The notes beneath the pieces are model-generated. The model searched no databases. It worked only from the letters and a program-made list of their open reading frames with translations, and was not told where the DNA came from. Source: a bacterium (GTDB lineage Bacteria > Vulcanimicrobiota > Xenobia > Xenobiales > JADMJV01). Taken from it: a stretch of DNA of 64,000 bases. This document shows, one piece after another, positions 423-17,949 of this stretch. The first letter of the stretch is position 1. Each line of letters starts with the position of its first letter. The DNA is taken from contig JAFEBA010000015.1 in NCBI GenBank assembly GCA_018266105.1, positions 472 through 64,471 of the forward strand, written 5' to 3'. Both the position numbers and the translations under genes were made by a program.

Positions 423-863
423 TTACGGGTGATCGACCAGGCCGGATTCGGCGAAGTACTGCGGGAAGTTCGCGCCAACGCTGTTGAAGCCGGTGTAGGC
501 TTTAGCGTGGTTGGTGCCGTTGCAGTAGAAGCTGAATGCGTCCGGGGTGGTCGCCGAGGTGAAGTTCGGCGAGTAGGTGTCCGTGCCGGCGGCCGGGCAG
601 CTCGGGATGAGCTTCAGGTAGTTGCCGGTGGTCAGCGAGTTCTTAATGTTAGCAGAGCTGGGGTAGCGGCCGCCGTTGTCCGAGGCATACATTTCCAGCG
701 CGGTTGCGATGTTTTTACAGTTGGATTTGCAAGCAGTCAACTGGCCTTGCGCACGAGCTTTGAGGAAGTTAGGAACAAGGATAGCAGCCAAGATCGCGAT
801 AATCGCGATTACGATCATAAGCTCGATCAGCGTAAAGCCGGCCTTCTTTTTCTTCATGAACAT
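423..863 (-). CDS. Type IV pilin / pseudopilin-like protein with a prepilin N-terminal cleavage/methylation motif.
   Basis: The N-terminus MFMKKKKAGFTLIELMIVIAIIAILAAILVPNF is a classic class-III signal (G^FTLIE plus a hydrophobic helix). Size is 146 aa, and the intrinsic terminator sits just downstream. Confidence 0.85.
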   Translation of the reverse strand: MFMKKKKAGFTLIELMIVIAIIAILAAILVPNFLKARAQGQLTACKSNCKNIATALEMYASDNGGRYPSSANIKNSLTTGNYLKLIPSCPAAGTDTYSPNFTSATTPDAFSFYCNGTNHAKAYTGFNSVGANFPQYFAESGLVDHP

Positions 864-4448: not shown

Positions 4449-5732
4449 ATGTTTCGCGTCTTTGTTTTTTGCTTCTTGTTGTGCAGTTTGGTGTGGGCCG
4501 AGCCGAGGGTGGTCGTCATCTCTCTGGATGGGCTGCGTCCCGAGTTTTATCTCGACTCGCGCTGGCCCGCCCCCTGTCTCCAGAGCCTGTGCCGCCAGGG
4601 GGCAGCGGCCAGGGCCATGTACTCGGTTTTTCCGAGCATCACTTACGCCAATCACACCAGTCTGGTCACCGGCGTTTCGCCTCAGGGCCACGGGATCGAC
4701 TGCAACGTGGACTTTGATTGGGAAACCGGACCGACTTTGGGCTGGAACTGGGAAGCCTCGAAGATCAAAGTTCCGACTTTGTGGGAGCTGGCTCGCCGTC
4801 GTCAGTTGATCAGCGCGGCTTTTTCCTGGCCGGTTTCGGTGGGCGCTCGGGTGGATTATTTGATTCCTGAAGTGTTCTCGATCCCGGGGGCAAATCAAGG
4901 CAGCACCGAGGATTTACTCAGAGTCCACTCCACTCCGAGTTTGATCGCACGCATTCAGGAGGATTCTGGACTCCCTTTCCCGGTCAGTTTTGCGGATTGG
5001 GACGCCTGGTTGCCTTCCGCTGTCGGCTATGTCTGGCGTACCTATCAGCCCCAATTGACACTGATTCACATGCTGAATCTGGATTGGACTCAGCACCGAT
5101 TTGGACCGGATGGCGCGGAGACACGTTCCGCCCTGGCTCGGCTGGATTCCGATTTGCAGCGCATCGTGGAGCAAATCGATCTAACCCAGACGGTTCTCAT
5201 GATTGTGGGCGACCACGGCTTTCAGTCGGTCAATCAAGTTATCAACCCGAATCGTCTGTTTTTCGACCGGGGCTGGATTCAGATGGAGCAAGGAAAAATT
5301 AAGTCCTGGCGGGTTTATGCTCGCAGTAACGGCGGCAGTGCTGCAATCTACTGTAAGGACCCGACCTTGTTGCCGCAGGTGGAAAAACTGATGGTACAGC
5401 GATCGGTGGGCCGGTGGGTGGTTCTGGACCGGCACCAGTTGGATTTGCGCAGGACCTTTCCCAGGGCGGCCCTGGCAATATCGGTGCCGCCCGGGCTGGC
5501 TTTGGGCCAATCTGTGGACGGACCGTTTGAAGTCAAAACCGAGCGAACACTCGGTCAGCACGGCCACCTGCCGGAACTGGTGCCGACCGGATGGATCATC
5601 GTGGGGCCCGGAATTAAAGCAGGAAGCGACCTGGGTCAGCGCAGCTTGCTTGAAGTGGCGCCGACCGTCGGTCGCTTGCTGAAACTGGATTGCTCCAGTA
5701 TGGAGAGCGACGGCTTAGAGTTGTTCCCCTAG
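4449..5732 (+). CDS. Secreted alkaline-phosphatase-superfamily enzyme (type I phosphodiesterase / nucleotide pyrophosphatase-like).
   Basis: N-terminal signal peptide. The VISLDGLRPE metal-binding motif is typical of the Phosphodiest/AP superfamily, and GDHG occurs mid-protein. Confidence 0.65.
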   Translation: MFRVFVFCFLLCSLVWAEPRVVVISLDGLRPEFYLDSRWPAPCLQSLCRQGAAARAMYSVFPSITYANHTSLVTGVSPQGHGIDCNVDFDWETGPTLGWNWEASKIKVPTLWELARRRQLISAAFSWPVSVGARVDYLIPEVFSIPGANQGSTEDLLRVHSTPSLIARIQEDSGLPFPVSFADWDAWLPSAVGYVWRTYQPQLTLIHMLNLDWTQHRFGPDGAETRSALARLDSDLQRIVEQIDLTQTVLMIVGDHGFQSVNQVINPNRLFFDRGWIQMEQGKIKSWRVYARSNGGSAAIYCKDPTLLPQVEKLMVQRSVGRWVVLDRHQLDLRRTFPRAALAISVPPGLALGQSVDGPFEVKTERTLGQHGHLPELVPTGWIIVGPGIKAGSDLGQRSLLEVAPTVGRLLKLDCSSMESDGLELFP

Positions 5733-6053
5733 CGCCGCCGCGACCGCATCACTATCCAGGCGCAGGCGTCCCAAGTTGACCTTGGGGCCGCCCTGGGTGA
5801 CCAGATAGGTGACCTCATTGATGGCGGTCAGGTGGGCCGTTCCCTGCTGCTGATCGAGAGTGACGCGCTGGCTGACGCCTCGGGCTTGGAAGTGTCCATC
5901 CAGGTGGTTGAGCAATTCGGCCACGCTGGCGCCAAAGCTATCGGGGTCAGGAACAAAGTTCCCCACGCTACTGATGACCAGGCCGTCTTTGCCGACCACC
6001 AGCGCCCCTTCGACGCCATTGATTTTGAGCAATTTTTCCAAGAGCTCTTCCAC
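5715..6053 (-). CDS. Roadblock/LC7 (MglB-like) domain protein.
   Basis: 112 aa. The motif INGVEGALVVGKDGLVISSVG and overall alpha-beta pattern match the Roadblock/LC7 family. Last gene of a minus-strand module. Confidence 0.75.
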   Translation of the reverse strand: MEELLEKLLKINGVEGALVVGKDGLVISSVGNFVPDPDSFGASVAELLNHLDGHFQARGVSQRVTLDQQQGTAHLTAINEVTYLVTQGGPKVNLGRLRLDSDAVAAALGEQL

Positions 6054-6124
6054 GGGTTAACCTCCAACTAGTTGATCGCTTTTCGCTTCGGGAAAGTTCT
6101 GAGTCGTCGATTTCGGTAGGACGA

Positions 6125-8857
6125 CTATTGGAACACTGAGGCCAGCATGGTTGCTGCCCCCTGCAGTCGGGTCTGCCACACGTCCTTCGACGCTTGAGTC
6201 GAGAGGATCGTGATCAGCACGGTTTGTTTGTCGAGAGGAATGAGGCTGAAGGCGAAACGGTCGCCCCGCAGCACGATCTGTCGAGTGGGCAAGCAACCCA
6301 TGGCCTGAAACGAGGATTCGCAATCCGCCAGAGTCTGACTGAGGACCACGCTGACCGTGTCGGGTGCGAGGTCACCGCCGGCGTACTGGATTTCGATCGG
6401 GCCATCCGGTCCGGTGACCAGATTGCCCTCGATGCCCTGCACCTGGCCCAGGTCTTCGAGAACCTTCTTGAGGATGGCTTCGAAGAGAGTCAGATCTGCC
6501 GACAGCGAGCCGGAGGATTCTTCCATGCTCACGACCACCTCCTGGGCGGTGGTCAACCAGAGTTGATTGCCGGTTGGGGTCATGCTCAGGTGCAGGCGTC
6601 CCCCATCGATATAGAGCGATTGGAGATTCCCCAGCCCGCTCTCTTCCATAGCGCGACGGAAATTTTCCCAAATGTCCAGTTGGTAGGCGCTGACGGGGCC
6701 GGTCAGCGCGGCCGGACGCAGCTCTCCAACCATGGTGAGGCCTTCACTGGTGGTCACGATGGCCGAGTGTCCGGGCTGTTCCTGGATCTCGGCGAAGAGC
6801 TCGTCCAGGTTGGCTTCGGTTCCACGTTGGCGCAGCTCTTCCAGGGCGCGACCGGCGGCGGCGTCGACTTTTTCCTCGGGGCTCCGGTCGCTCATCGGCA
6901 AACTGACTTCCGGCAAAACCTCGGAGGGCAGGTCCTCGGCGGGAACCGCCTGGGGAGGGGTCGCGACCGGTTCGCTGGGGGCCGGGGGAAGATTGAGGTC
7001 CAGGTCCAGGTCCAGGTCCAGGTCGAGATCCAGATCCAGATCCAGATTCAGGTCGAGTCCGGCCATGCTGTCTGGGGTGCTGGGAGTTGGGGCCTGCACG
7101 GGGGGGGCCGGCGGCAGGGGGTCTGGCTCGACGGCGACGGGTTCGGGCTCCGGAACTGGAGCCGGCTCTTCCACCACGGGTACAGGCTCGGGCTCAACAG
7201 CGACCGGCTCCGGCTCAATGGCTACGGGCTCCGGCTCTGGTTCGGGTTGAATCGGTTCGGGCTCCACCGCCACAGGTTCGGGCTCCACGGGGGCCTCGGC
7301 CGGAGCTTCTTCTTTCTGGTTGAAGTCGCCCAGCTCAGGCATCTCCTGGAACAAATCGTCCAGGGGATCCATGCTGGCGCTCTTCGTGGGAGCGGCCTTG
7401 GGCGTGGTCGGTCGAGCCGGACTGAGGTCCAGGTTGTCCAGATCCAGTTCCAGATCGAAGTCGTCCAGGGAAGACGAGCTGGTCTGTGGGGCGACTGGAG
7501 TGGTCCCCAGGCCCAGTTCTTCGAGGTCCAGATCGAGATCCAGGTCAAGAATATCCTGGCCCGCGGGGGTCACGGTTTCCGCGGCTTCGCTGACGGCCTC
7601 AAGAATTTCCGGCTCCTCCGGCAAGCTCTCGGTCGACTCCTGAACGCTAGCGGGCTCGGGCTCGGGCCCTAACAGATGTTCGCCCACGCAGTTGCCCACG
7701 TTGACCCAGGTCAGGCCGCCGAATCTTTGCAGCAGATCTTCTACGCTGCGATCCATCGTCTGACTCTGGACTCGTTCCAGTTCGGTCGACAACAGGCTGA
7801 GATCGTGCAGTGTGCGCACACGCATGCCGCCCTCGGGCCGATAGGCGTCCACCAACTGGCGGGCGTCCTGGCGCAGGGGGAGGGGACTGACCAGGAAAGC
7901 TGCATCCGGTCGATAGTAGCGGGCCCGAGAGAGGAAGCGGAAAGCCATGTCGGCCGTGACAGCCTCTTCTTGTACTTCAAAGAGAATGGCCGAATCGTGA
8001 TAGGCGGCGAAAAGGTTGATGGTGCGATAGTCTTTCTCGACCGTCCAGCGCAAATGTTTGCGATCGACGCCGATCTGCTTGAGGGCGTCTGCCAGGCAGA
8101 GGGCCAGCCACAGGTTGCGCTTGGAGAGTCGACGTCCCAGGTCGGTGGAGAACAGGAACTGAATAATGCGCTCTTCCATGATCGGGCGTCCGCTGGAGAA
8201 GCTGCGGAAGCCCATGCGGGCTGCCTCGTCCAACGCGGATTTGCTGGGGAATTTGCACAGCTGGATGCCTGTATCGCGGCAGTAAACCTGGAACTCGCGC
8301 TGGATCAGCTGGCATCCCTCCAGTTGTTCCGCCACCTGGTCCCAGTTGGCTTCGAACTTGTTGGAGGTGACCTGCTCCAGGGGCACGCCAGCACGTCGGC
8401 TGACTTCGGCCAGCAGGTGGCGGTTGGCGGCAGGTGCCATGGCTCGGGCAGGCTCGATGTCTCCCTCAAAATTGGGGAAAGCTTCGCTTTCCTCGAGCAG
8501 GGGCTGAAATCGCTCGGCCTGATTGGTCAGTTGCTGCCAGCGGTCGCTGCCTAGAGCTTCGCCCACGGTCTGGCGGAATTCGTCAAAGGCCTGGTCGGGA
8601 GAGGCTTCATTGTAGACCGCGCCCACTTCGATTGAGCGGCGGTCCTCCGAGATCCAATAGTAAAGCAGGTCCGACTGTCCGGTCAGAAAGAGTTCCCCTC
8701 CCGGAGAAACCAGTGCCGGCGGCAGGTCCAGCACTCGGCGGATTTGCAGCGCGACGTCCACAACCAGAGGCTGGAATTGTTCGCACAGGCGGGCCCAGAG
8801 GTCATTTTCCCTTTCCTTGCTGACCCGGACCTTGAGACGCTCGCGCATCAGATTCAT
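6125..8857 (-). CDS. Large (910 aa) multidomain protein. It has an N-terminal globular region of unknown function, a central acidic Pro/Glu/Asp-Leu low-complexity linker, and C-terminal tandem Roadblock/LC7-like domains.
   Basis: AGGAGG Shine-Dalgarno 11 nt upstream of the ATG at 8857. The central region contains (PEPEPVAVE)n and (LD)n repeats. Two C-terminal segments (IVTTSEGLTMVGEL... and LVTGPDGPIEIQYAGG...) match the Roadblock pattern. The gene sits 23 nt downstream of the giant TPR gene. Confidence 0.7.
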   Translation of the reverse strand: MNLMRERLKVRVSKERENDLWARLCEQFQPLVVDVALQIRRVLDLPPALVSPGGELFLTGQSDLLYYWISEDRRSIEVGAVYNEASPDQAFDEFRQTVGEALGSDRWQQLTNQAERFQPLLEESEAFPNFEGDIEPARAMAPAANRHLLAEVSRRAGVPLEQVTSNKFEANWDQVAEQLEGCQLIQREFQVYCRDTGIQLCKFPSKSALDEAARMGFRSFSSGRPIMEERIIQFLFSTDLGRRLSKRNLWLALCLADALKQIGVDRKHLRWTVEKDYRTINLFAAYHDSAILFEVQEEAVTADMAFRFLSRARYYRPDAAFLVSPLPLRQDARQLVDAYRPEGGMRVRTLHDLSLLSTELERVQSQTMDRSVEDLLQRFGGLTWVNVGNCVGEHLLGPEPEPASVQESTESLPEEPEILEAVSEAAETVTPAGQDILDLDLDLDLEELGLGTTPVAPQTSSSSLDDFDLELDLDNLDLSPARPTTPKAAPTKSASMDPLDDLFQEMPELGDFNQKEEAPAEAPVEPEPVAVEPEPIQPEPEPEPVAIEPEPVAVEPEPVPVVEEPAPVPEPEPVAVEPDPLPPAPPVQAPTPSTPDSMAGLDLNLDLDLDLDLDLDLDLDLNLPPAPSEPVATPPQAVPAEDLPSEVLPEVSLPMSDRSPEEKVDAAAGRALEELRQRGTEANLDELFAEIQEQPGHSAIVTTSEGLTMVGELRPAALTGPVSAYQLDIWENFRRAMEESGLGNLQSLYIDGGRLHLSMTPTGNQLWLTTAQEVVVSMEESSGSLSADLTLFEAILKKVLEDLGQVQGIEGNLVTGPDGPIEIQYAGGDLAPDTVSVVLSQTLADCESSFQAMGCLPTRQIVLRGDRFAFSLIPLDKQTVLITILSTQASKDVWQTRLQGAATMLASVFQ
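6995..7057. repeat. Tandem hexanucleotide repeat (GACCTG/GATCTG)n, about 10 units, inside the 6125..8857 gene. On the coding strand it encodes (Leu-Asp)n.
   Basis: Direct reading shows gaggtc caggtc caggtc caggtc caggtc gagatc cagatc cagatc cagatt caggtc. Further imperfect GGCTC(C/G)GG-type repeats at about 7126-7296 encode PEPEPV units. Confidence 0.8.
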
Positions 8858-8880
8858 TACCTTGGATCCTCCTGAGGTTG

Positions 8881-11800
8881 TTAACTACGTTCGCTCAAGC
8901 CCTGCGGTGGGACGCCCAACCGGTCGAGTTCTCGCTGGATCTTCTCCAAAAAGGCCTCGGAACGTTTCCGCAGTGCTACCCGATAGCCTTCTTGCAACTG
9001 CTCAATACAATCCTGGGTCATCTTCAGGCGGTCATAGACCAGAGCCAGGTTGTAACGAGCGTTCAAGTCTTGCGGTTCGATTTCCAAGCAGCGGCGATAG
9101 GCCTCGATGACCTGCTCCCATCGCCCTTTTTTGGAGTAGGCGACACCCAGATTATAGTGACTCTTGGAGTCGGTCGGGTTGAGCGCAATGGCTTTTTGGT
9201 AAGCGCTGATGGCTTCGTCCAGGCGGTTGGCGCCGGCATTGGCGATGCCCAGGTGGCTGTGGGCTTCGGCGCTGTATGGGTCGAGCTCCACGGCTTTTTG
9301 GAGCACGTCGATGGCCTGGTCGTATTCGCCCTGACGGAAGTAGATCAGGCCCAGTTTGGAAAGGATGTCTGGGTCGCGAGGCGAGAGGCGTAGTGCCTCT
9401 TGGTACGCGGAAGCGGCCTGTTCCCAGCGCGAAAGCTGCATATAGACCAGTCCCGTATCGGCATAGGGACGGGCCCAGGTTGGGTCCGCCTCAACCGCTC
9501 GAATCAGATTGTCGAGAGCCGCTTCGAATTTGCCCCGTCGCAGCAGTACCGTGCCCAGGCCGGCCAGGGCGCGCGAGCAATGCGGGTCCATTTCCAGCGC
9601 CTTGCGGAAGTTCTGTTCGGCCGCTTCCCAGCGGCGTTGAGCTGATTGGGCATCGCCCAGCCGAGCGTAGACGCCGGGGCCGGCTTTGAGTTTGAGGGCG
9701 GTCTCCACGGTCTGGATGGCAAGTTGTGAATCCCCTCGCTTCAGATAAGCCTCGGAGAGTTTAAGCAGCAAGTCCACGTCGCCCGGGTCCAGGTCAATGG
9801 CGCGCAGATATTCCTCGATGGCCAGATCCAGCTCGCCTTTGGTTTCATAAAGGCTGCCCAGTTCGCTGCGGATTGATCCCAGGTCGGGGTAGTCGTTCAG
9901 AAGTTGCTGGAAGTTGCGAATGGCGTCATCGGTGTCGCCCAGCCGGGCCAGGCAGAGGGCGCGCTGGACACGGATGTCCAGGCGCTTGGGATCGATGCGG
10001 TAAGCTTCTTGCGTGTCCTGGAGAGCCAGTTCAAGCTTATTTTGAAGCAGATAAAGGCGACCCGATTGGTAGCGCAAGGAGGCCTCGTCGGGGAAGCGCA
10101 CCGCCGCCTGGGCCAGTTCGTTTTCAGCCTGTTCCCAGCGCTGCAGCTGGATCAGGATTTGCGCCCGACGGTAGTGGATGTCGTGATGGGGCGAGCCGCT
10201 GGCTTCTGCCTGAGCAAACAGGTCCAGGGCCTCGGGCAGTCGGCCCAGAGCCGTGCAGCAGCAGGCATAGGCATAATAAAGCTCAGCCCGCTTGGGGCTG
10301 TTGGGAGTCAGGTCCAGGGCTGTCTGTAAGTTGAAAGCAGCCTCGGCGAAGTAGGAGCCCTGCTGTAGAAGCAGACCCAGCTCACCGTGGAAGTCACCAC
10401 GCCCTTCTTCGATGCGCAAGGCTTGGCGGAAGTAGTTCTCGGCCCCGCGCTGGTCGCCCAGTTGACGCACGCACAGACCAAGCAGGAAGAGTGCGTCGGC
10501 GTGTTCCGGGTCGTAACGCAAGCAGTTGCCCAAAGATTCGCGGGCCTGATCAAAATAGCCTGACTGGAACTGGGCGTTGCCCAGTTCAAAATAGCTTTCA
10601 GCTCGCTGCGGGGCCAGCTTGATGGCGGCCTCGTAGGCGCTGATGGCCGTCTCGGGGTCGTTGAGCTCGCGACAGGTCTCGGCCAGATCGAGTAGATAGT
10701 GGAGGTTGGCGGGGTCGAGTTCGGTGGCCCGCTGCAGGCACTCGCGAGCCAGGTCCAGCCGGCCCAGATCGCGTTCGACCAGGGCGCTCTCGTAATGATA
10801 GTTGGCCTGGCCGGGATCCAGGTGGGCGGCCTGGGCGAAATGCTCGCGAGCTTTCTCGTCGCGACTGATGCGGCGCAAGGCCAGCCCCAGTCGATAGTGG
10901 GCGTCGGCCCAATAGGGGTGGTGTTTTACAGCGTTTTCGTAGGCCTGAGTGGAAAGCTCGGGGAGCTTGAGGGCTTCGTAGACTTCACCCAGGACTGCGT
11001 AGGCTTCGTGATGAGCAGGATTGAGCTCCACCGCTTGGCGCAGGGCCACCACCGCCAGATCCAGGCGCTGCAGCTTCCAGTAGGCCTGGCCCAATGCGAA
11101 GTGGACAAAACTGTTGTGAGGGTTAAGCTCCAAAGCCTTGGTATAGCTTTCGACCGCGTCTTCGTAACGGCCCATTCCAGATTGAGCTGTGCCCATCAGG
11201 AAGTAGGTGTGGCTCTGGTCGGGTAACAGCTTGATGGACTGCTTGTAGTTACTGACGGCCAGGTCCAGCTTGTCCAGCTGGGTGTAGGCCTGACCCAGGG
11301 CTACGAAAAACTCGGGGTTGTTGGGATCACCCGCCAGAGCGCGTTGGTAGCGCTTGATGGCCAGATCCAGTCGTCCCAGGCGCACATAGGATTGGCCCAG
11401 TCGAAAATGGGCCTGGGCCATATCCGGATCGAGCTCGATGGCGCGCTGATACTCGCGATTGGCGTCTTCGATATTGCCCTGGCGGGCGAAGATGTTGCCC
11501 AGTTCGAAATGGCTCTTGGGGTTATCGCCTTCCAGCGAGAGCGAGGTCTGCAGCTCCAGCTTGGCCATTCCCAATTTGCCCAGGTGGGCGTAGACCTGAC
11601 CCAGGTGATAGTGAACCTGGGCGTCGTTGGGGTCCAGGTCGATGGCTTTGCGAAATTCCTGGACAGCGAGATCGAAACGATTGGTTTGATAGTAAGCCAG
11701 TCCCAGATTGTTGTGAGTATAGGGGTCGTTGGGGTCGAGGCGGATCGCCTCCAGGTATTCGTGGATACAGGCTTCGCTATCGCCCAGTCGGGCGTAGGCG

Positions 11801-12588
11801 CGACCCAGATTGTAGTGGTAGTAGGATTCATCCGGACTGAGCTGGACGGCACGGCGCAGATATTGCACCGCTTCATCCAGTTCATTGGTCTGGGATAGAT
11901 AGAGTCCAAGATTGTAGTTGGCAGCGGCGTGCTCGGCCTCGAGCTCAATGACCCGACGAAACATGTCGATGGCCTGGTCGGTTTTGCCCAGCTTGCCCAG
12001 GCAGACGCCCATTTGGAAATGGGCTTCCACGCTGTTGGGGGTGTTTTCCAGCAGCTTGGAGTACTCTTCAATGGCCATCTCCAACTTGCCCTGACGCTGG
12101 TAGACTTGAGCCAGGTTGAAGCGGGCATCCTGATTGGTTGGATCGAGTCGCACTTGACGCAGATAGTCGTCAGCGCCCTGGAGCCGCTCTAATTCTTGCT
12201 GGATACGACGTTCACCGGTGGAGTCGTTCATGTTTTGAACGATCTTGAGAGCCACCTGCAGGCTGGTGATCGCGCGGTCGCGCTGGCCCAGCCGCTCGTA
12301 GGCCAGGCCTAAATTATAGTGGGCGCGCACAAAGTTGGGTACAAGCGCCAGCACCTCTTGCCACTCGCGAATGGCCATGTCGATGTTGCCCTGGCGGAAG
12401 TAGGCCGTACCCATTTCATAGTGCGCCTGGTGATGCTCGGGATGCAGCACCACCACGCGCTGATATTCACGAATAGCCGCCTCCAGGCGGTTTTCGTAAA
12501 GATGCTGGTTGCCCAGCCGATAGTGATATTGAACCTCGTCCGAGGTGGCCGCTCCAAGCGGGTCCAGTGGGGACTGCATTCGGTCCAC
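8881..12588 (-). CDS. Giant TPR-repeat protein (1235 aa).
   Basis: More than 30 consecutive 34-aa TPR units (A..Y..ALRLDP.. motifs throughout). Alternate-frame ORFs inside it are translation artefacts. Confidence 0.85.
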   Translation of the reverse strand: MDRMQSPLDPLGAATSDEVQYHYRLGNQHLYENRLEAAIREYQRVVVLHPEHHQAHYEMGTAYFRQGNIDMAIREWQEVLALVPNFVRAHYNLGLAYERLGQRDRAITSLQVALKIVQNMNDSTGERRIQQELERLQGADDYLRQVRLDPTNQDARFNLAQVYQRQGKLEMAIEEYSKLLENTPNSVEAHFQMGVCLGKLGKTDQAIDMFRRVIELEAEHAAANYNLGLYLSQTNELDEAVQYLRRAVQLSPDESYYHYNLGRAYARLGDSEACIHEYLEAIRLDPNDPYTHNNLGLAYYQTNRFDLAVQEFRKAIDLDPNDAQVHYHLGQVYAHLGKLGMAKLELQTSLSLEGDNPKSHFELGNIFARQGNIEDANREYQRAIELDPDMAQAHFRLGQSYVRLGRLDLAIKRYQRALAGDPNNPEFFVALGQAYTQLDKLDLAVSNYKQSIKLLPDQSHTYFLMGTAQSGMGRYEDAVESYTKALELNPHNSFVHFALGQAYWKLQRLDLAVVALRQAVELNPAHHEAYAVLGEVYEALKLPELSTQAYENAVKHHPYWADAHYRLGLALRRISRDEKAREHFAQAAHLDPGQANYHYESALVERDLGRLDLARECLQRATELDPANLHYLLDLAETCRELNDPETAISAYEAAIKLAPQRAESYFELGNAQFQSGYFDQARESLGNCLRYDPEHADALFLLGLCVRQLGDQRGAENYFRQALRIEEGRGDFHGELGLLLQQGSYFAEAAFNLQTALDLTPNSPKRAELYYAYACCCTALGRLPEALDLFAQAEASGSPHHDIHYRRAQILIQLQRWEQAENELAQAAVRFPDEASLRYQSGRLYLLQNKLELALQDTQEAYRIDPKRLDIRVQRALCLARLGDTDDAIRNFQQLLNDYPDLGSIRSELGSLYETKGELDLAIEEYLRAIDLDPGDVDLLLKLSEAYLKRGDSQLAIQTVETALKLKAGPGVYARLGDAQSAQRRWEAAEQNFRKALEMDPHCSRALAGLGTVLLRRGKFEAALDNLIRAVEADPTWARPYADTGLVYMQLSRWEQAASAYQEALRLSPRDPDILSKLGLIYFRQGEYDQAIDVLQKAVELDPYSAEAHSHLGIANAGANRLDEAISAYQKAIALNPTDSKSHYNLGVAYSKKGRWEQVIEAYRRCLEIEPQDLNARYNLALVYDRLKMTQDCIEQLQEGYRVALRKRSEAFLEKIQRELDRLGVPPQGLSERS

Positions 12589-12739
12589 GGGCGCATCCTT
12601 TGCCGTCTCTGTCTGTTCCTAGGGTTGTATGGCCCGGGGAGCAGAATAGTTGGCCCTGGGCTTGGACACACCAGGGGGCATTTCCTTGCCGAGGGAGCGG
12701 ACTTTAGAGGAACAGGCAGATGGCAGCGAACAAACCGCC

Positions 12740-13654
12740 ATGATGAAAAAGTGGTTTGGTGCTTTGCTGCTTACCGCCGGCCTGGTCCTGGGGGCGTCGG
12801 CTGAAGGGACCCTGACGGTCTTTTGCAATAGTGTTCCGGTCAAATTGAACGCCATCACCCGCAACGGCGTGGCCTACTATCCGGTCGAGCCGGTGGTGAA
12901 TGCTTTCGGCGCGGACATGTACTGGAATCCCACCGTGCATTCACTGCGCGTGGACCGCAAGAACATTGAAATAGAGCCTGTCTTTGTGGGTGAAGATATT
13001 TACCTGCCCTTGGAGACCATCGCCGAGGCCCTGGGGGCCTCGGCCACCTGGAATCCCGGGCAGGGTGAGGTGGTCCTGAATCGCACCAAACGGTTGAACG
13101 CTCCCAACAACGTTCCTATGGTCTCTTTTCAGGGTTCCCACATTCCTGAAGATGCGACCGGCGGTGGACACACCAAAAGCAACCTGCAGCCCCCTCCCTC
13201 CGTACCGGTGCGACCGGCTCCCGGGCAGCCCGACCCGATCGGGGCTCAGCGCGTCTCTTCCGAACTGAACCGAGAGAAGGAGGGCTCGGGCGACATCTAT
13301 ACCCCTCGCGTGGCCCGCAACGCCGCTTTCCAGGTCACCGTCACCAATCTGGAGGTGGTCGACTCGATTCGCGGTCATCATCAGCCGCGTAACGGTCACA
13401 GGTTTATCGTTATCTACGTCTCCCAAAAGAACGTCACCATGCAGCCGGTTCTGAATCCGGGAACGTTCTTTGTGCAAGATCAGTCTGGCAACGATTTTGA
13501 GCCGATGATGGAGTTCTCTAACTTTATGGGGGTCGTGCTGAAGCCTTACGGCATTAACTTCGGCTACTTTGTCTATGAGCTACCCACGCAGTCGGTGCCG
13601 GTGCGACTGGTGTTGGTCACCACCAATCAATCCCCGGTTGAGGTAAATCTGTGA
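12740..13654 (+). CDS. Secreted protein with a copper-amine-oxidase N-terminal-like (stalk) domain and a DUF4352-like C-terminal domain.
   Basis: Signal peptide MMKKWFGALLLTAGLVLGASA. Two half-repeats (ITRNGVAYYPVEPVVNAFGADMYWNP and IYLPLETIAEALGASATWNP) match the Cu_amine_oxidN1 pattern. The six-frame track ORF begins upstream at 12650, but the likely start is the ATG at 12740. Confidence 0.5.
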   Translation: MMKKWFGALLLTAGLVLGASAEGTLTVFCNSVPVKLNAITRNGVAYYPVEPVVNAFGADMYWNPTVHSLRVDRKNIEIEPVFVGEDIYLPLETIAEALGASATWNPGQGEVVLNRTKRLNAPNNVPMVSFQGSHIPEDATGGGHTKSNLQPPPSVPVRPAPGQPDPIGAQRVSSELNREKEGSGDIYTPRVARNAAFQVTVTNLEVVDSIRGHHQPRNGHRFIVIYVSQKNVTMQPVLNPGTFFVQDQSGNDFEPMMEFSNFMGVVLKPYGINFGYFVYELPTQSVPVRLVLVTTNQSPVEVNL

Positions 13655-14871
13655 GAGTCCTCTTTCTACTTCTATTGTTGTGCGCGGTGGCCGGTGCCGA
13701 GCCCCTGCATATCTCTTTCTGGCATGCGTTTTCCGGTGACCGTGAGGCGCGTTTACGCGAACAGGTCGAAAAGTTTCAGCAGCAGAATCCAGAAATCGCT
13801 GTTGATCTGCGCTCTTTCACCGATCCGCGTAGGGCTGGCAACGACTATGCCGAGCTCTACAAGAATTTGCTACGAGCCAGCGCCGAAGGCAAGCCTCCAG
13901 TGGTGGCTCAGATGTACGAGAATTGGGTGACTCAACTGGCTGAGGTCAAGCAGCTGGTGCCTCTGGATAAGGAGCTGGAAGCAATTTGGAAAGACCTGCC
14001 GGCCGTTTTCCTGAAAGCATCCACTCACTGGAACGGAAAGCGCTACTCGGTCCCATTCAATAAGAGTCTCTGGGCTCTTTACGCCAACAATCACCTCTTT
14101 GAGGAGAAGGATCCGCCTCAGAATTGGAGCGAGTTCAGGGTCGCTTGCGCCAAGCTGAAAGAGCAATTCCCGCGGGGGGTGGTGGCCACGCCCAGCCCCT
14201 TTGAACTCTTTGACATGCACTTCGTCTCTCAGGGCGGTCGATTTTTCGACGCTCACAAACAGCCGAGTTTTGCCGGCCCGTTGGGTCTGTCCAGTGGCGG
14301 TTATTGCCAGGCCCTGGCAGGACAGGACGGCAGTTGCATTTTTGGACCGGAAGCTTCCCAGCTCTTTCTGGACGGTCGCTTGCCCTTTCTGATTGATACC
14401 AGTGCCAAACTGGCCACCCTGGAAAGTAAGCTGGGCGACCGCCTCTCGGTTTTTCCCTTGCCCCGCGGAGCGGGTGATCGCATTCAGCTCACGGGGACTC
14501 AACTTTCCCTCTTCAGTCAGTCGAGCCCGGCCGAGCGTCGTGCGGGCGTTCGCTTGCTTCGCTTTTTGACCTCGCCTGAGCAGACTCGTGACTGGGCCAT
14601 GGCCACCGGTTATTTACCGGTGCGCAACGGTGCCTATACCGACCCGGTTTATCTCGATTACCTCAGGGCCAGGCCGGGGAGGGCTGTCATCACCGGCGAG
14701 TTGGCGCGCGCCCAGGTGCAGCCTCAGGTTGTGGGCTGGGAATCGACTCGGGTCCTCATCAACGATGCTCTGGAGCGCACTCTCTACCAGAAGCGCCCGA
14801 TCGATAAGGAGTTGATCGGCGCCCAGGCCGTTACCGCTCGCCTGGTGCGGGGACTGCAAGGTCGACCCTGA
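13651..14871 (+). CDS. Extracellular solute-binding protein (ABC-transporter family 1, sugar-type SBP). It is an orphan: no permease or ATPase genes are adjacent.
   Basis: Signal peptide, then ...ISFWHAFSGDREARLREQVEKFQQQNPEIAVDL..., typical of family-1 SBPs. The GTG start overlaps the upstream stop by 4 nt. Confidence 0.75.
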   Translation: MRVLFLLLLLCAVAGAEPLHISFWHAFSGDREARLREQVEKFQQQNPEIAVDLRSFTDPRRAGNDYAELYKNLLRASAEGKPPVVAQMYENWVTQLAEVKQLVPLDKELEAIWKDLPAVFLKASTHWNGKRYSVPFNKSLWALYANNHLFEEKDPPQNWSEFRVACAKLKEQFPRGVVATPSPFELFDMHFVSQGGRFFDAHKQPSFAGPLGLSSGGYCQALAGQDGSCIFGPEASQLFLDGRLPFLIDTSAKLATLESKLGDRLSVFPLPRGAGDRIQLTGTQLSLFSQSSPAERRAGVRLLRFLTSPEQTRDWAMATGYLPVRNGAYTDPVYLDYLRARPGRAVITGELARAQVQPQVVGWESTRVLINDALERTLYQKRPIDKELIGAQAVTARLVRGLQGRP

Positions 14872-14912
14872 AGCGGCTGGCTGGTCTGCTCGGCTACATC
14901 GACGAGCTGAGC

Positions 14913-15887
14913 TTGATTGTCATTGGTCTGGTGCTGTTCCTGGTGGCCAGCAACACTCAAACCGGCTGGGTCTATCTGCTCTCTGGCACCGTTTTCGGGG
15001 CGTTGATGACGGGCTGGTGGAGCTCCCGGAGGGCCCTGAGGCCGGCCAATTTCAGACTCTGGGTTCCAGGCTCCGTTCCTCGGGGGCAGGGCTTTGCGGC
15101 CACCCTGAGCTGGACCTCGGCGGCCCTGGGCTATTCCGCCTATTGGAAACCTTTGGGCCAGATCCAACTGGATCAGCAAGGGCGCGAACAGGCTCTGTTG
15201 GAGTCGAGTCAGCGCGAGCAGAAGGTCTGGTTGATCGGTCAACAGCGCGGAATTTTCTCTCAGATTCCGGGGGAAATCACCTGTTATGGTCCCCTGGCCT
15301 GGTTTGCCGCCAGACGTCGGCTCAATCCGGAGTTGAGTCAACCGCTCTACATTCTGCCGCGTAGACGAGAGATGAGCAATCAGAAGATGAAGGCTCTGGC
15401 CCGCGGGAGCCTGGGTGACCGCCGCGGCCAGCCGGCCGGACAGGGAGACCTTCGTCGTTTGCGCGAGTATCAGGTGGGCGACGATGTGCGTTGGATCCAT
15501 TGGGCCAGTAGCGCTCGGCGCGGGGAGCTGGTCGTTCGTGAGTTTTCCCAAGGTGGTGCTCTCCAGCTGGTCCTGTGCTGGGGATGCCAGGCGGAGGCGC
15601 TGTCAGAGGTTGAAGCTTTCGAAGAGCTGATGGACTGGGTCTACACTTATTTTGTGTCGGCTCGGGAGCAGGGCTGGCCTGTACAGCTGCTGGTGCCCCA
15701 GGCCGACGGCAGCTGGAAAGCCAGCGAGCAGATCGAGATTCTGGCTACGGCTCAGGCGCAGGTGACCCCGCCTGCGCCGGCCTGGTCGGCCGCCCAAGGT
15801 TGGGCTCGCATCGACTTCTGGCTGGGTCGTGGTTGCTCACCGGCGGGTGTAGAGGTCTTGGAGTTTGGAGAAAAGGCGCGTGTTTAA
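14913..15887 (+). CDS. DUF58 domain protein.
   Basis: Signature DLRRLREYQVGDDVRWIHWASSARRGELVVREF matches the DUF58 hallmark (YxxGDD.R.IDWkasAR.g.L.VrEf). N-terminal TM helix. Confidence 0.75.
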   Translation: MIVIGLVLFLVASNTQTGWVYLLSGTVFGALMTGWWSSRRALRPANFRLWVPGSVPRGQGFAATLSWTSAALGYSAYWKPLGQIQLDQQGREQALLESSQREQKVWLIGQQRGIFSQIPGEITCYGPLAWFAARRRLNPELSQPLYILPRRREMSNQKMKALARGSLGDRRGQPAGQGDLRRLREYQVGDDVRWIHWASSARRGELVVREFSQGGALQLVLCWGCQAEALSEVEAFEELMDWVYTYFVSAREQGWPVQLLVPQADGSWKASEQIEILATAQAQVTPPAPAWSAAQGWARIDFWLGRGCSPAGVEVLEFGEKARV

Positions 15888-17949
15888 GGCCTGGATCCGC
15901 TTTCTCAAGAGCTTGAAGCGGGTGCCCGAGGACTCGGGTCATTTTCGCGCCTGGGTGGCTGTCAACGTGACCGTGGCCCTGGTGGCCACCGCTGAGCAAT
16001 TGGATTGGCCCTTGTTTTTCTGGCCATGTCTGGCTTTGACCTGGTTTGGGATGTGGGTCAGTCATCGCTTGCGTCGACGCAACAATTGGGAGATTAAGGC
16101 CGCCTTGTCGGTGCTGATGGTGGTGGCTCTGGTCAATTTCTTTACCGGTCTGGCTCACAGTTACTACGACCCGCGGGAGCCTCTGGCCCAGCTCTTGATG
16201 TGGCTGCAGGCTCTGCACAGTTGTGATCTGCCCACACGCAAGGATCTGAGTTACTCGCTGCTCTCGGCGTTGATTTTGATGGCTGTTGGGGCGGTCTTGA
16301 GCATCACTTTTTCCTTTGCCGTCTACCTCAGTCTGTATTACCTCAGCGCGGTCATGGCCTTGCGTTGGAATGTGCGCTCACTGGTTGGGGAGCGCACCGG
16401 CTGGCGACCGGCCAGTGGCCGGTCCTTGCCGTCCTGGCGAGGCGGGCTGGGCCTGGGCGCCTCGGTGCTGGGCTGTGGCCTGGTGGTGGTGATGCTGATG
16501 CCCAGATTAGAAGGCTTTCGCATTCGCGCTCTGCCGATGAGCTGGCAAAATCATCTGGAGCAGGCGGCCGAGAGCAAGGGCGAGGTGCAGAATCCTTATT
16601 ACCCGGCTCAGCTATCCAAGGAACAGATGAAAAAGGAGTCCCACTTCAATTCCAGCGGCTATGGGGGATTCAGTTCGCTGGTTGATTTGCAAACTCGAGG
16701 TCGACTCGATCATGAGCGTGTGTTTCAGGTGCGTACAAACGTGGAGTGCTACTTCAGGGCTCTGACCTTCGATACCTACGACGGCCAGTTCTGGTCTCAA
16801 TCCGAAGAAGAGCTCCAATCTCTCAACGTGCAAAACCCGCCCTTTACTTTTATGCCCACAGCCAGTAACGCGACCGATGTGGTGCAGATTTTCTATATCG
16901 ACCGGCCCTTATCCAATCTGGTGCTTTTCTCTCCAGACGCCTATCAGGTGTTCTTTCCCAGTCAGATTCTTTATCAGGATCGCGCCGGGTGTCTGCGGGC
17001 TCCTTTTGTGCTGGACAAGGATATGGTTTACTCCGTCGTCAGTCGCCAGTCTCATATGACGCCTCGGCGCCTGAGTCGCTTGCCGCGGCGCGACCCGGAG
17101 TTGCGCAAGCTGACCAACTACCTGCAGTTGCCCGATACTCTTCCTGCGAGGGTGAGCGAACTGGCTCGTCAGGTCACCAAGGGGCGCAATGGCTATTACG
17201 ACCGGGCTGCAGCAATCGCTTTGTATCTGAGCAGCAATTATGCCTACGACCTGGATGTCCCACGCTTCGCGGAAGACCACGATGCCGTGGACTCGTTCTT
17301 GTTTGAGAGTCGGCGTGGGTATTGTGAGCACTTTGCCGCGGCCATGACGGTGATGTGTCGCGCCCTCAAAGTGCCCGCGCGCTACTGTACCGGCTTCTTG
17401 CCCGGAACCTACAACCCGTTCAGCGGCTTTCGCGAGGTTTATGGAGATCAGGCCCACGCCTGGGTGGAGGTCTTCATCCCGGGATACGGTTGGATGACGT
17501 TCGACCCGACCCCGGGGGGCAGTTTGACTCCTGAAGTGGATGCTGGTTCGGCTCCTCAGAATCGCTGGCTGGGCCTGGCTGTCCTGGAATATCTTGGGGC
17601 CAAGTTTGGGGTCTCCGCTTCGCGTCTGGCGGTCTGGCTGGTTGGTATCGGGCTGGGACTGCTGGGAGTGGCCGGGTTGCGAGCTCTCACTCCTCGTCCT
17701 CGATTGGATCCGGTTCTGGCGGCCCTTTTGGAGGCCTGGCCTTTGCTTGGACCTTGTCCTCCGGGTCAGTCCCCGCGAGCACGAGCCGCCGCGCACCCCT
17801 ACGAATCCTTGCGCAGGCTGGTCGAATTGCACGAATCGGTGGCTTACGCCGGACGCCCCAGTAGTGCGGCGGAGCATAAATTGGCGCGGGAGCTCCTGGC
17901 TCAGCTGCGCTCTGAAGTGGCTAAGGCGTCTGGGCCGTCGGGCCGGTGA
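15865..17949 (+). CDS. Transglutaminase-like membrane protein (TgpA-like; DUF3488 N-terminal TM region plus a transglutaminase core).
   Basis: Multiple N-terminal TM helices. The core GYCEHFAAAMTVMCRALKVPARYCTGF...HAWVEVFIPGYGWMTFDPT carries a Cys-His-Asp transglutaminase triad. It overlaps the DUF58 gene by 23 nt. Confidence 0.85.
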   Translation: MEKRRVFKAWIRFLKSLKRVPEDSGHFRAWVAVNVTVALVATAEQLDWPLFFWPCLALTWFGMWVSHRLRRRNNWEIKAALSVLMVVALVNFFTGLAHSYYDPREPLAQLLMWLQALHSCDLPTRKDLSYSLLSALILMAVGAVLSITFSFAVYLSLYYLSAVMALRWNVRSLVGERTGWRPASGRSLPSWRGGLGLGASVLGCGLVVVMLMPRLEGFRIRALPMSWQNHLEQAAESKGEVQNPYYPAQLSKEQMKKESHFNSSGYGGFSSLVDLQTRGRLDHERVFQVRTNVECYFRALTFDTYDGQFWSQSEEELQSLNVQNPPFTFMPTASNATDVVQIFYIDRPLSNLVLFSPDAYQVFFPSQILYQDRAGCLRAPFVLDKDMVYSVVSRQSHMTPRRLSRLPRRDPELRKLTNYLQLPDTLPARVSELARQVTKGRNGYYDRAAAIALYLSSNYAYDLDVPRFAEDHDAVDSFLFESRRGYCEHFAAAMTVMCRALKVPARYCTGFLPGTYNPFSGFREVYGDQAHAWVEVFIPGYGWMTFDPTPGGSLTPEVDAGSAPQNRWLGLAVLEYLGAKFGVSASRLAVWLVGIGLGLLGVAGLRALTPRPRLDPVLAALLEAWPLLGPCPPGQSPRARAAAHPYESLRRLVELHESVAYAGRPSSAAEHKLARELLAQLRSEVAKASGPSGR

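What the first reader, a model, noticed from the sequence alone, without database searches (positions are those of the whole stretch)
5715..12588. Three-gene minus-strand module: giant TPR protein, acidic Pro/Glu-repeat tandem-Roadblock protein, stand-alone Roadblock. Candidate undescribed polarity or GTPase-regulatory scaffold.
The three genes are tightly spaced on the same strand: 8881..12588, 6125..8857 and 5715..6053, with gaps of 23 and 71 nt. The middle gene has a strong AGGAGG ribosome-binding site.

The middle protein combines three parts:
(i) an about 430-aa N-terminal globular region with no family I can name, containing a possible PD-(D/E)xK-like stretch (YHDSAILFEVQEE);
(ii) an about 200-aa acidic low-complexity linker made of (PEPEPVAVE)n and (LD)n repeats;
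(iii) two C-terminal Roadblock/LC7-like domains.
A separate canonical Roadblock protein follows.

Roadblock/LC7 proteins are established partners or GAPs of small Ras-like GTPases, for example MglB with MglA. Pro-rich acidic linkers are known from pole-targeting factors such as RomR. No small GTPase gene is present in the window, so the module would act on a partner encoded elsewhere, or act independently. I do not recognise this domain combination as a described family.
Basis: partly seen in the sequence, partly recalled or inferred. Interest (0 to 1): 0.7.

Follow-up and report, generated by a model that had tools for sequence, protein, structure and literature searches.

The report
Roadblock–TPR scaffold operon with dead nuclease
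Three adjacent genes found only in the little-known bacterial phylum Vulcanimicrobiota (Eremiobacterota) encode a giant repeat protein, a large adaptor made from a disabled nuclease plus two Roadblock domains, and a small Roadblock protein; in sister lineages the same genes sit next to a sensor kinase, so this is probably an undescribed signalling scaffold, not a classical GTPase switch.

Summary
All three ORFs, the 23 and 71 nt gaps, the AGGAGG site, the acidic (LD)n/PEP linker, two C-terminal Roadblock folds and a stand-alone Roadblock are present. The same gene order recurs in about 30 related loci, all from Vulcanimicrobiota (Eremiobacterota) MAGs.

New findings:
- **Degenerate active site.** The wider family (592 cluster representatives) conserves three Cys and D…ExK. 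The window's clade has lost the CxxC pair and has K→Q, and the window itself also has D→N. It is a pseudo-nuclease.
- **Kinase linkage.** In the sister clade the motif is intact. There the Roadblock gene is followed, sometimes with abutting stop and start codons, by a REC-GAF-HisKA_3 kinase and a NarL-type regulator.
- **No GTPase.** No small GTPase lies within ±10 kb in the 27 loci scanned, and none is in the 64 kb window.

Best reading: a Roadblock/TPR signalling scaffold, conservon-like but without a GTPase, whose kinase linkage was lost in this lineage. Function is inferred. This is a new variant of a known kind, of moderate interest.

The parts
8881..12588 (-). Giant TPR protein of 1235 aa, TPR repeats throughout (23 TPR_2 stretches in Pfam), cytoplasmic, pI 5.4. 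It is the most conserved member of the module.
   Evidence: Pfam TPR families across the whole length. Orthologues of 1219-1235 aa align colinearly at 41-95% identity in about 30 loci. No hydrophobic segment.
6125..8857 (-). 910 aa adaptor protein made of an N-terminal pseudo-nuclease region, an acidic disordered linker and a tandem Roadblock.
   Evidence: Fifty-six of the 172 family proteins analysed (the 150 best representatives plus cluster members and the window protein) share the N-terminal region fused to a tandem Roadblock.
8483..8857 (-). aa 1-125: alpha+beta domain with element order beta-alpha-beta3-alpha-beta-alpha. It resembles TBP-like and KA1-like folds. Function unknown.
8243..8467 (-). 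aa 131-205: winged-helix-like unit of three helices plus a beta-hairpin. The hairpin carries the family-wide motif L-x-REF-x-V-x-C193.
   Evidence: H143-154, H160-163, H172-181, E185-192, E199-203. C193 is conserved in 97% of the 172 family proteins. The winged-helix call is inferred from element order.
7664..8242 (-). aa 206-398: degenerate Cys knuckle (family C219-x-x-C222, here S-F-S-S) and a PD-(D/E)xK fold with a dead site (family D281…E294-x-K296, here N…E-V-Q), followed by a long C-terminal helix.
6878..7663 (-). aa 399-660: acidic Pro/Glu/Leu/Asp low-complexity linker with two (LD)n blocks and PEPxPVAVE repeats. Its length varies among orthologues.
   Evidence: Net charge -61, 53 Pro. 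Alignment shows the (LD)n blocks conserved within the window-type clade and the length variable, with whole proteins of 772-1009 aa. DNA repeats at 6996-7054 and 7185-7237. Disorder is inferred from composition.
6539..6811 (-). aa 683-773: Roadblock/LC7 domain 1.
   Evidence: Pfam 19.4 bits at aa 685-769, below the gathering score. Profile hit to Asgard Roadblock 7f8m, E 4e-6. AF2 fold alpha-beta-beta-alpha-beta-beta-beta. Foldseek.
6128..6493 (-). aa 789-910: Roadblock/LC7 domain 2 with a C-terminal helix, carrying the near-invariant motif LREAILKKVLEDL.
   Evidence: Profile hit to 9jue_D, E 1.5e-3. AF2 model. Foldseek to 9jue and MglB 3t12, 1j3w, 6hjm with TMt about 0.8. hhalign with the small Roadblock gives probability 96%.
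5715..6053 (-). Stand-alone Roadblock/LC7 protein of 112 aa.
   Evidence: Pfam Robl_LC7 34.6 bits, above the gathering score. Best solved relatives are Asgard Roadblock 7f8m and Streptomyces conservon CvnB5 3leq, E about 0.03. Present after the middle gene in all loci except L027.
8868..8873 (-). AGGAGG ribosome-binding site of the middle gene.
   Evidence: Read from the sequence.
6061..6065 (-). GGAGG ribosome-binding site of the small Roadblock gene.
   Evidence: Read from the sequence.
12650..17949 (+). Context only. Divergently transcribed cluster: Cu_amine_oxidN1-domain protein, solute-binding protein, DUF58, TgpA transglutaminase. It stays next to the TPR gene across deep lineages.
   Evidence: for the window; L021; L028; L038; L005, partial.

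Best explanation
**Shown**
- The three genes are the conserved core of an operon specific to Vulcanimicrobiota (Eremiobacterota).
- The 910 aa protein is a modular adaptor. Its N-terminal 400 aa descends from a family with a winged helix, a three-Cys site and a Can2/Card1-type PD-(D/E)xK nuclease fold.
- In the window's clade the Cys pair and the catalytic Lys are gone, and in the window itself the Asp is gone as well. The domain is therefore most likely a binding module and not an enzyme.
- A 262 aa acidic linker follows. It leads to two Roadblock domains that the model packs confidently against each other (pTM 0.86).
- In the sister clade the same genes are followed, sometimes with abutting stop and start codons, by a soluble REC-GAF-HisKA_3 histidine kinase and a NarL-type response regulator.

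**Inferred**
- The two Roadblock domains form an intramolecular pseudo-dimer.
- The 112 aa Roadblock protein forms a second dimer layer on it, as MglC does with MglB and as Ragulator layers do.
- The giant TPR superhelix is the platform that holds this assembly and its client or clients.
- The ancestral job of the complex is to feed into or gate that two-component pathway. This is comparable to the Roadblock protein CvnB in actinobacterial conservons, but without a GTPase encoded alongside.
- In the window's lineage the kinase linkage and the nuclease chemistry were both lost, and the scaffold acts on a partner encoded elsewhere.
For: - **Synteny.** TPR, adaptor and Roadblock occur in the same order in all loci with enough sequence. 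Flanks differ among window-type loci, so the triad is the conserved unit.
- **Co-transcription.** Short gaps, RBSs and no terminator-like site between the genes.
- **N-terminal fold.**
- **Family breadth and motifs.** 592 representatives. C193 is conserved in 97% of the 172 proteins analysed, C222 in 90%, E229 in 98% and W250 in 99%. D..ExK is intact in 65 of the 172.
- **Clean split.** Twenty-six window-type loci have SS and K->Q and carry no kinase. Seven sister-clade loci have CCC and D-E-K (K->H in one), and six of the seven carry a GAF histidine kinase downstream, with a GerE-type regulator in five.
- **Tight coupling to the kinase.** Stop and start codons abut at L035 4686, L036 11155 and L038 11874.
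- **Tandem Roadblock.**
- **Small Roadblock.** Related to domain 2 and marginally to conservon CvnB5.
- **Precedents.** Stacking of Roadblock dimers and binding of an acidic partner are described in PMC10329633. Conservon composition is described in the PMC13343842 abstract.
Against: - No interaction, stoichiometry or activity was measured, and no multimer prediction could be run.
- In the window's own clade no kinase or regulator is adjacent. The only GerE-type regulator in the window (39580-40248) sits beside HisKA-type kinases, not HisKA_3, so the two-component link is extrapolated from the sister clade.
- The two most distant loci, L026 and L027, lack the TPR gene, and L027 also lacks the small Roadblock.
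- The TPR protein as a whole is acidic, so simple charge pairing with the acidic linker is not supported.
- A GTPase encoded elsewhere in the genome was not excluded.
Confidence: 0.45

Rival explanations
1. MglB-type regulator. The Roadblock layers act as a GAP, GEF or platform for a small Ras-like GTPase encoded elsewhere. They would control cell polarity or type IV pilus motility, with the TPR protein playing an SgmX-like effector or scaffold role.
For: Fold matches to MglB from Thermus and Myxococcus and to MglC. Many MglB homologues are genomic orphans: 328 of 749 (PMC4316618). The only cultured member of the phylum moves by type IV pili (PMC9758169). A pilin-like gene lies at 423-863, and PilZ genes lie near some orthologous loci.
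Against: No small GTPase within +-10 kb in the 27 loci scanned, nor in the 64 kb window. Wherever an extra conserved partner exists, it is a histidine kinase and response regulator, not a GTPase. The Roadblock fold alone does not imply GAP activity. The resemblance to SgmX is from memory and was not tested.
Confidence: 0.25
2. DNA- or nucleoid-associated structural role. The winged helix and inactive nuclease fold would bind DNA or RNA. The acidic linker and Roadblock/TPR parts would tether nucleic acid to another cell structure.
For: Winged-helix-like unit and a PD-(D/E)xK fold with a dead site. Inactive nuclease folds are commonly kept as nucleic-acid binders (general knowledge).
Against: The N-terminal region is net acidic (-9, pI 5.35). 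No nucleic-acid-binding test was possible. No neighbouring DNA-metabolism genes are conserved.
Confidence: 0.12
3. Anti-phage or conflict system. A Can2-like nuclease effector would be regulated by TPR and Roadblock sensor parts.
For: Closest solved folds are the CRISPR ancillary nucleases Can2, Card1 and Cdn1. A distant relative weakly matches the PADLOC PD_DExK model described there as 'same family as the one fused to CARF'. The D-E-K motif is intact in the sister clade.
Against: No PADLOC hit for the adaptor or the Roadblock. The module lies in a housekeeping chromosomal region. It is conserved in order across one phylum, with TPR identity of 41-95%, unlike patchy defence islands. The catalytic residues are lost in the window's clade. 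No cas or cyclase genes appear in any locus gene list.
Confidence: 0.06

Closest known systems
Actinobacterial conservons (CvnA histidine-kinase-like, CvnB Roadblock, CvnC DUF742, CvnD small GTPase)
   Same: A Roadblock protein is encoded in one operon with a histidine kinase, as seen in the sister clade. The small Roadblock's best solved sequence relatives include CvnB5 (3leq, E 0.04). Both serve a cytoplasmic regulatory role.
   Different: No GTPase and no DUF742 protein. The kinase is a soluble REC-GAF-HisKA_3 type with a NarL partner. This module adds a giant TPR protein and the pseudo-nuclease/tandem-Roadblock adaptor. The phylum differs. In the window itself no kinase is adjacent.
MglB / MglC / RomR polarity module of Myxococcus xanthus
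   Same: Roadblock folds. Several Roadblock units are likely to stack. An acidic, Pro-rich low-complexity segment is present, as in RomR (PMC10329633).
   Different: No mglA next to the genes in any locus. The Roadblock domains are fused in tandem behind a nuclease-fold region. The adaptor has no receiver domain. No evidence of polar localisation.
Can2 / Card1 / VC1899 (DUF1887) CARF-nuclease effectors of type III CRISPR systems
   Different: No recognisable Rossmann-type CARF domain. The catalytic Lys, and here also the Asp, are replaced. No CRISPR context. The region is fused to Roadblock domains.
Ragulator/LAMTOR and Mon1-Ccz1 (eukaryotic multi-Roadblock/longin platforms)
   Same: Layered or tandem Roadblock-type domains form a platform. 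Foldseek aligns about 290-325 columns to Mon1-Ccz1 chains and also matches Ragulator subunits.
   Different: The eukaryotic complexes act on Rag and Rab GTPases at membranes. Here no GTPase or membrane anchor is evident. The similarity is at fold level only.

Membership tests
Roadblock/LC7 (Pfam PF03259) | Sequence match above the Pfam gathering score | tested here: met
   The small protein scores 34.6 bits against a cut-off of 23. For the adaptor the Pfam score is 19.4 bits, below the cut-off. However, a family profile hits Roadblock chains with both halves, E 4e-6 and 1.5e-3.
Roadblock/LC7 (Pfam PF03259) | alpha-beta-beta-alpha-beta-beta-beta fold | tested here: met
   The AF2 model (pLDDT 90.7) shows the fold twice. 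Foldseek TMt is about 0.8 to Roadblock and MglB chains.
MglB-type GAP | Gene coupled to an mglA-like small GTPase gene (within about four genes) | tested here: not met
   No Walker-A/NKxD small GTPase ORF in the window or within +-10 kb in the 27 loci scanned.
MglB-type GAP | Stimulates GTP hydrolysis by its GTPase | not testable with these tools
   Requires a biochemical assay.
Conservon (Cvn) system | Four core genes: HK-like CvnA, Roadblock CvnB, DUF742 CvnC and GTPase CvnD | tested here: not met
   Roadblock is present. A kinase is adjacent only in the sister clade and is of a different type. No DUF742 or GTPase appears in any locus gene list.
Can2/Card1 CARF nucleases | Intact PD-(D/E)xK catalytic residues | tested here: not met
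   The window has N281, E294, Q296. All 26 window-type loci have Q at the Lys position. The sister clade keeps D-E-K.
Can2/Card1 CARF nucleases | N-terminal CARF (Rossmann-like) ligand-binding domain | tested here: inconclusive
Can2/Card1 CARF nucleases | Association with type III CRISPR or other cyclic-oligonucleotide signalling genes | tested here: not met
   No cas or cyclase families in the locus gene lists. No PADLOC hit.
TPR repeat proteins | Multiple 34-residue TPR motifs | tested here: met
   TPR_1, TPR_2 and TPR_11 with 21-23 separate stretches each, E down to 1e-190.
RomR-like polarity factor | N-terminal receiver domain plus Pro-rich linker plus acidic C-terminus | tested here: not met
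   No Response_reg match in the adaptor. Only the composition of the linker is similar.

The most novel reading that the evidence does not exclude
The module may be a domesticated descendant of a Can2-like, ligand-gated nuclease effector. It would have been fused to a Roadblock pseudo-dimer and recruited, together with a dedicated giant TPR scaffold, as a phylum-wide input device for a GAF histidine kinase/NarL pathway. That would make it a GTPase-independent, Roadblock-based signalling machine, and it would show that Roadblock platforms can regulate two-component systems directly. In the window's lineage it would have been further converted into a purely structural scaffold.
Probability: 0.15. 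Interest if true: 0.8.

Novelty: new variant of a known kind. Interest (0 to 1): 0.55.

Why it matters
Roadblock/LC7 proteins are ancient partners of small GTPases, from MglB in bacteria to Ragulator in eukaryotes. Nearly half of the bacterial homologues have no GTPase gene next to them, and their roles are largely unknown.

This module is a well-conserved, clearly delimited orphan case. It has an unprecedented architecture (nuclease fold, acidic linker and tandem Roadblock) and a dedicated 1235 aa TPR partner that is unusually well conserved along its full length. A natural comparison is built in: the sister clade keeps the catalytic motif and the kinase linkage, and the window's clade has lost both.

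That makes two questions testable. First, what do orphan Roadblock proteins do? Second, can they act on histidine kinases without a GTPase? It also defines a protein family of roughly 600 cluster representatives, the stand-alone and fused N-terminal domain, that has no database model. Finally, it adds cell-biological content to a phylum with a single cultured species.

Tried and rejected
- **Word-index protein search with the full adaptor.** It returned only 7 relatives and understated the family. The exhaustive profile search found 592.
- **PDB sequence search with the N-terminal profile.** No hit even at E 10. Only fold comparison was informative.
- **PADLOC and NCBIfam.** Nothing for the adaptor or the small Roadblock. 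The many NCBIfam 'equivalog' hits of the TPR protein (MamA, PilW, Tgl and others) are generic TPR matches and were disregarded.
- **Charge complementarity between the acidic linker and the TPR protein.** Rejected as a simple model, because the TPR protein is itself net -42.
- **Kinase and regulator inside the window.** I looked for orthologues of the sister-clade pair. Only a generic GerE regulator next to HisKA-type kinases at 37730-41482 was found. It is not convincingly orthologous.
- **Paralogues in the window.** No further N-terminal-domain or Roadblock copies.
- **afdb50 fold library.** Not available.
- **Promoter scan.** No sigma-70-like site in 5400-13000. This is uninformative for this phylum.
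- **Literature searches.** Searches for the domain combination or for Roadblock in Eremiobacterota found nothing relevant.
- **Whole-genome check for mglA in this lineage.** Not possible.
Full report
**1. Observation**

- 8881..12588, 1235 aa;
- 6125..8857, 910 aa;
- 5715..6053, 112 aa.

The gaps are 23 and 71 nt. AGGAGG lies 10 nt upstream of the ATG of the middle gene. GGAGG precedes the GTG of the small gene. No terminator-like hairpin lies between the genes.

Pfam shows TPR repeats along the whole large protein. It gives a Robl_LC7 match above the gathering score for the small one (34.6 bits against 23). For residues 685-769 of the middle protein it gives only a sub-threshold match of 19.4 bits.

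The linker (aa 399-660) has net charge -61 and 53 prolines. It is encoded partly by a 6-nt repeat (x9.8, 6996-7054, the (LD)n block) and a 21-nt repeat (7185-7237). None of the three proteins has a hydrophobic segment, and all are acidic.

**2. Source organism and reality of the module**

The exact adaptor protein occurs on one other public contig. The word-index search found only seven relatives. A scan of one genome per GTDB species found 15 loci. Those with a phylum-level name are Vulcanimicrobiota or Candidatus Xenobia MAGs; a few records are titled Burkholderiales, Selenomonadaceae or simply 'bacterium'. Vulcanimicrobiota is the NCBI name of the phylum, also called Eremiobacterota/WPS-2 (my knowledge).

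tblastn of the four parts against all loci shows the same order, TPR then adaptor then Roadblock, in every locus long enough to show it. Identities were:

| Part | Identity to the window |
|---|---|
| TPR protein, full length | 55-95% |
| Adaptor N-terminal region | 42-95% |
| Tandem Roadblock | 33-90% |
| Small Roadblock | 38-84% |

The flanks differ between window-type loci: phosphodiesterase here, LpxC in L002, an ion channel in L005. The triad is therefore the conserved unit. The window itself is ordinary chromosome, carrying SecDF, TruB, CTP synthase, aro and lysine-pathway genes and GlgB.

**3. The C-terminal half of the adaptor**

A profile of the last 265 residues hits solved Roadblock proteins with both halves: 7f8m at E 4e-6 for positions 37-126, and 9jue_D at E 1.5e-3 for positions 154-243. 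With a 24-sequence alignment, AlphaFold2 gives pLDDT 90.7 and pTM 0.86. The model contains two alpha-beta-beta-alpha-beta-beta-beta units, the second with a C-terminal helix.

Foldseek matches Asgard Roadblock, Thermus and Myxococcus MglB, MglC, Ragulator subunits and a Streptomyces Roadblock at TMt of about 0.8. Each hit covers half of the query. Foldseek also aligns about 300 columns to Mon1-Ccz1. The high pTM for a two-domain chain indicates a fixed mutual orientation. I read this as an intramolecular pseudo-dimer, which is an inference.

The stand-alone Roadblock is most like domain 2 (hhalign 96%). Its best solved sequence relatives, at marginal E of about 0.03, are an Asgard Roadblock and the conservon protein CvnB5.

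**4. The N-terminal half of the adaptor**

It has no Pfam, NCBIfam or PADLOC family and no PDB sequence match. AlphaFold2 on seven sequences gives pLDDT 81.8. The model has four parts:
- an alpha+beta domain (aa 1-125);
- three helices plus a beta-hairpin, winged-helix-like (aa 131-205);
- a short knuckle;
- an alpha-beta-beta-beta-alpha-beta core followed by a long helix (aa about 249-380).

**5. The wider family and the dead active site**

An exhaustive profile search of 1.84 billion cluster representatives found 592 proteins with this region at E <= 1e-3, and 71 at E <= 1e-30. I analysed 172 family proteins: the 150 best representatives, some of their cluster members, the earlier relatives and the window protein. 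Of these, 56 carry the tandem Roadblock at the C-terminus. About 100 are stand-alone proteins of 450-480 aa.

Family-wide conserved positions, in window numbering, are C193 (97%), C219 (79%), C222 (90%), E229 (98%), W250 (99%) and D281…E294-x-K296. The D-E-K triad is intact in 65 of the 172. Some stand-alone members weakly match Pfam Mrr_cat and the PADLOC PD_DExK model annotated 'same family as the one fused to CARF (1XMX)'.

The window protein reads C-S-S-E-W-N-E-Q at these positions. The CxxC pair is gone, Asp is Asn and Lys is Gln. All 26 window-type loci have Ser-Ser and Gln. In this lineage the nuclease fold is therefore almost certainly non-catalytic. That conclusion is inferred from established knowledge of PD-(D/E)xK chemistry.

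**6. Context in the sister clade**

More distant fused members fall in a second clade that keeps C-C-C and D-E-K, with K→H in one. Their adaptor N-terminal regions are 24-29% identical to the window, yet the TPR orthologue is still 41-47% identical over about 1220 residues.

| Locus | Genes directly after the Roadblock gene |
|---|---|
| L021 | GAF-HisKA_3-HATPase_c kinase, then REC-GerE regulator |
| L034, L035, L036 | REC-GAF-HisKA_3-HATPase_c kinase, then REC-GerE regulator |
| L038 | REC-GAF-HisKA_3-HATPase_c kinase, then REC-GerE regulator |
| L026 | separate REC, then GAF-GAF-HATPase_c protein; no TPR gene |
| L027 | kinase and regulator follow the adaptor directly; no TPR gene, no small Roadblock; motif degenerate |
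| L028 | no kinase |

In L035, L036 and L038 the Roadblock stop codon and the kinase start codon abut. No homologue of that kinase lies next to any window-type locus. The only GerE regulator in the window sits 27 kb away, beside HisKA-type kinases.

Loss of the kinase linkage thus coincides with loss of the Cys pair and the catalytic Lys.

**7. GTPase question**

A Walker-A scan of all ORFs found no small GTPase in the window. The only genuine P-loop ORF is shikimate kinase. The same motif scan of the 27 loci held at that point found none within +-10 kb; only SelB-type translation factors turned up. None was called in L038 either.

Published work counted 328 of 749 MglB homologues as orphans (PMC4316618). 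A distant partner therefore cannot be excluded, and I could not scan a whole genome of this lineage.

**8. Mechanism**

The best-supported reading is a cytoplasmic Roadblock/TPR scaffold that ancestrally works with a soluble GAF histidine kinase and NarL-type regulator.

Shown:
- the domain folds;
- the conserved gene order;
- the kinase adjacency in the sister clade;
- the degenerate site in the window's clade.

Inferred:
- a pseudo-dimer plus a Roadblock homodimer stacking as in MglC-MglB or Ragulator (PMC10329633);
- the TPR superhelix acting as platform;
- regulation of the kinase, by analogy with conservons, in which a Roadblock protein is one of four core components with a histidine-kinase-like protein and a GTPase (PMC13343842 abstract).

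Rivals:
- an MglB-like regulator of an unlinked GTPase for polarity or pilus motility. This is plausible, since the only cultured member of the phylum moves by type IV pili (PMC9758169), but it is unsupported by context;
- a nucleic-acid-tethering role for the dead nuclease and winged helix;
- a defence system, which is unlikely given the core-genome behaviour, the lack of PADLOC hits and the dead site.

**9. Novelty and verdict**

The folds are known: TPR, Roadblock and PD-(D/E)xK. The fusion, the dedicated TPR partner and the kinase linkage without a GTPase are not described in the libraries or in the literature I searched.

I rate it a new variant of a known kind (Roadblock-based regulatory modules). 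Interest is 0.55. The anatomy and evolutionary pattern are solid, and function remains inferred.

Noticed in passing
L023:8001-9350, L024:4352-5794 (proteins P0049, P0058, P0044 cluster): Stand-alone relatives of the adaptor's N-terminal region (about 450-480 aa) form a large unannotated family in Eremiobacterota and in MAGs labelled Armatimonadota. In both loci examined they sit divergently from a conserved set: a small ORF, an HDOD/HD protein, a 146-169 aa protein and an NTP_transferase-phosphoglucomutase fusion. Many other stand-alone members keep D..ExK.
   Followed up: partly
window 12650-17949 (+): A divergently transcribed cluster stays next to the TPR gene even in distant lineages (L021, L028, L038, partly L005). 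It encodes a Cu_amine_oxidN1/DUF4352 protein, a solute-binding protein, DUF58 and a TgpA transglutaminase. This could be a functional link or only conserved synteny.
   Followed up: partly
window 2918-4366 (-): A second, unrelated TPR protein of 482 aa lies two genes downstream of the module. The same gene is present in the closest relatives L006, L007 and L009.
   Followed up: no
L002/L003:4956-6008 and 550-1209; L004:4867-5919; L021:13724-14095: In one window-type subclade a GAF-GGDEF cyclase lies directly upstream of the TPR gene with a PilZ protein nearby. In L021 a PilZ protein follows the response regulator. This is a faint hint of a c-di-GMP connection.
   Followed up: no
L010, L011, L015, L017, L014 (record titles): Contigs carrying clear orthologues of this Vulcanimicrobiota-specific operon are titled 'uncultured Burkholderiales bacterium' or 'Selenomonadaceae bacterium'. 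These are probably wrong taxonomic labels on the MAGs.
   Followed up: no
window 5715-5732: The 3' end of the small Roadblock gene overlaps by 18 nt the 3' end of a convergent type I phosphodiesterase/nucleotide pyrophosphatase gene (4449-5732, +).
   Followed up: no
window 28519-30888, 33355-34395, 34401-35969: Two Ser/Thr protein kinases are present, one fused to an AAA_16 domain. Next to them is a 522 aa ORF with no Pfam match.
   Followed up: no
window 423-863 (-): A pilin-like protein with a prepilin N-terminal methylation motif. It is the only pilus-related gene seen near the module.
   Followed up: no
L004:6238-9940: In GCA_964269575.1 the TPR gene is called as two ORFs of 293 and 949 aa. 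This is probably a frameshift or an assembly error, not a real split.
   Followed up: no
family alignment, window residues C193, S219, S222 (family C, C, C): The family conserves exactly three cysteines: one in the wing hairpin and a CxxC before the nuclease core. No conserved fourth Cys or His was found. The nature of the presumed metal site is unclear.
   Followed up: partly
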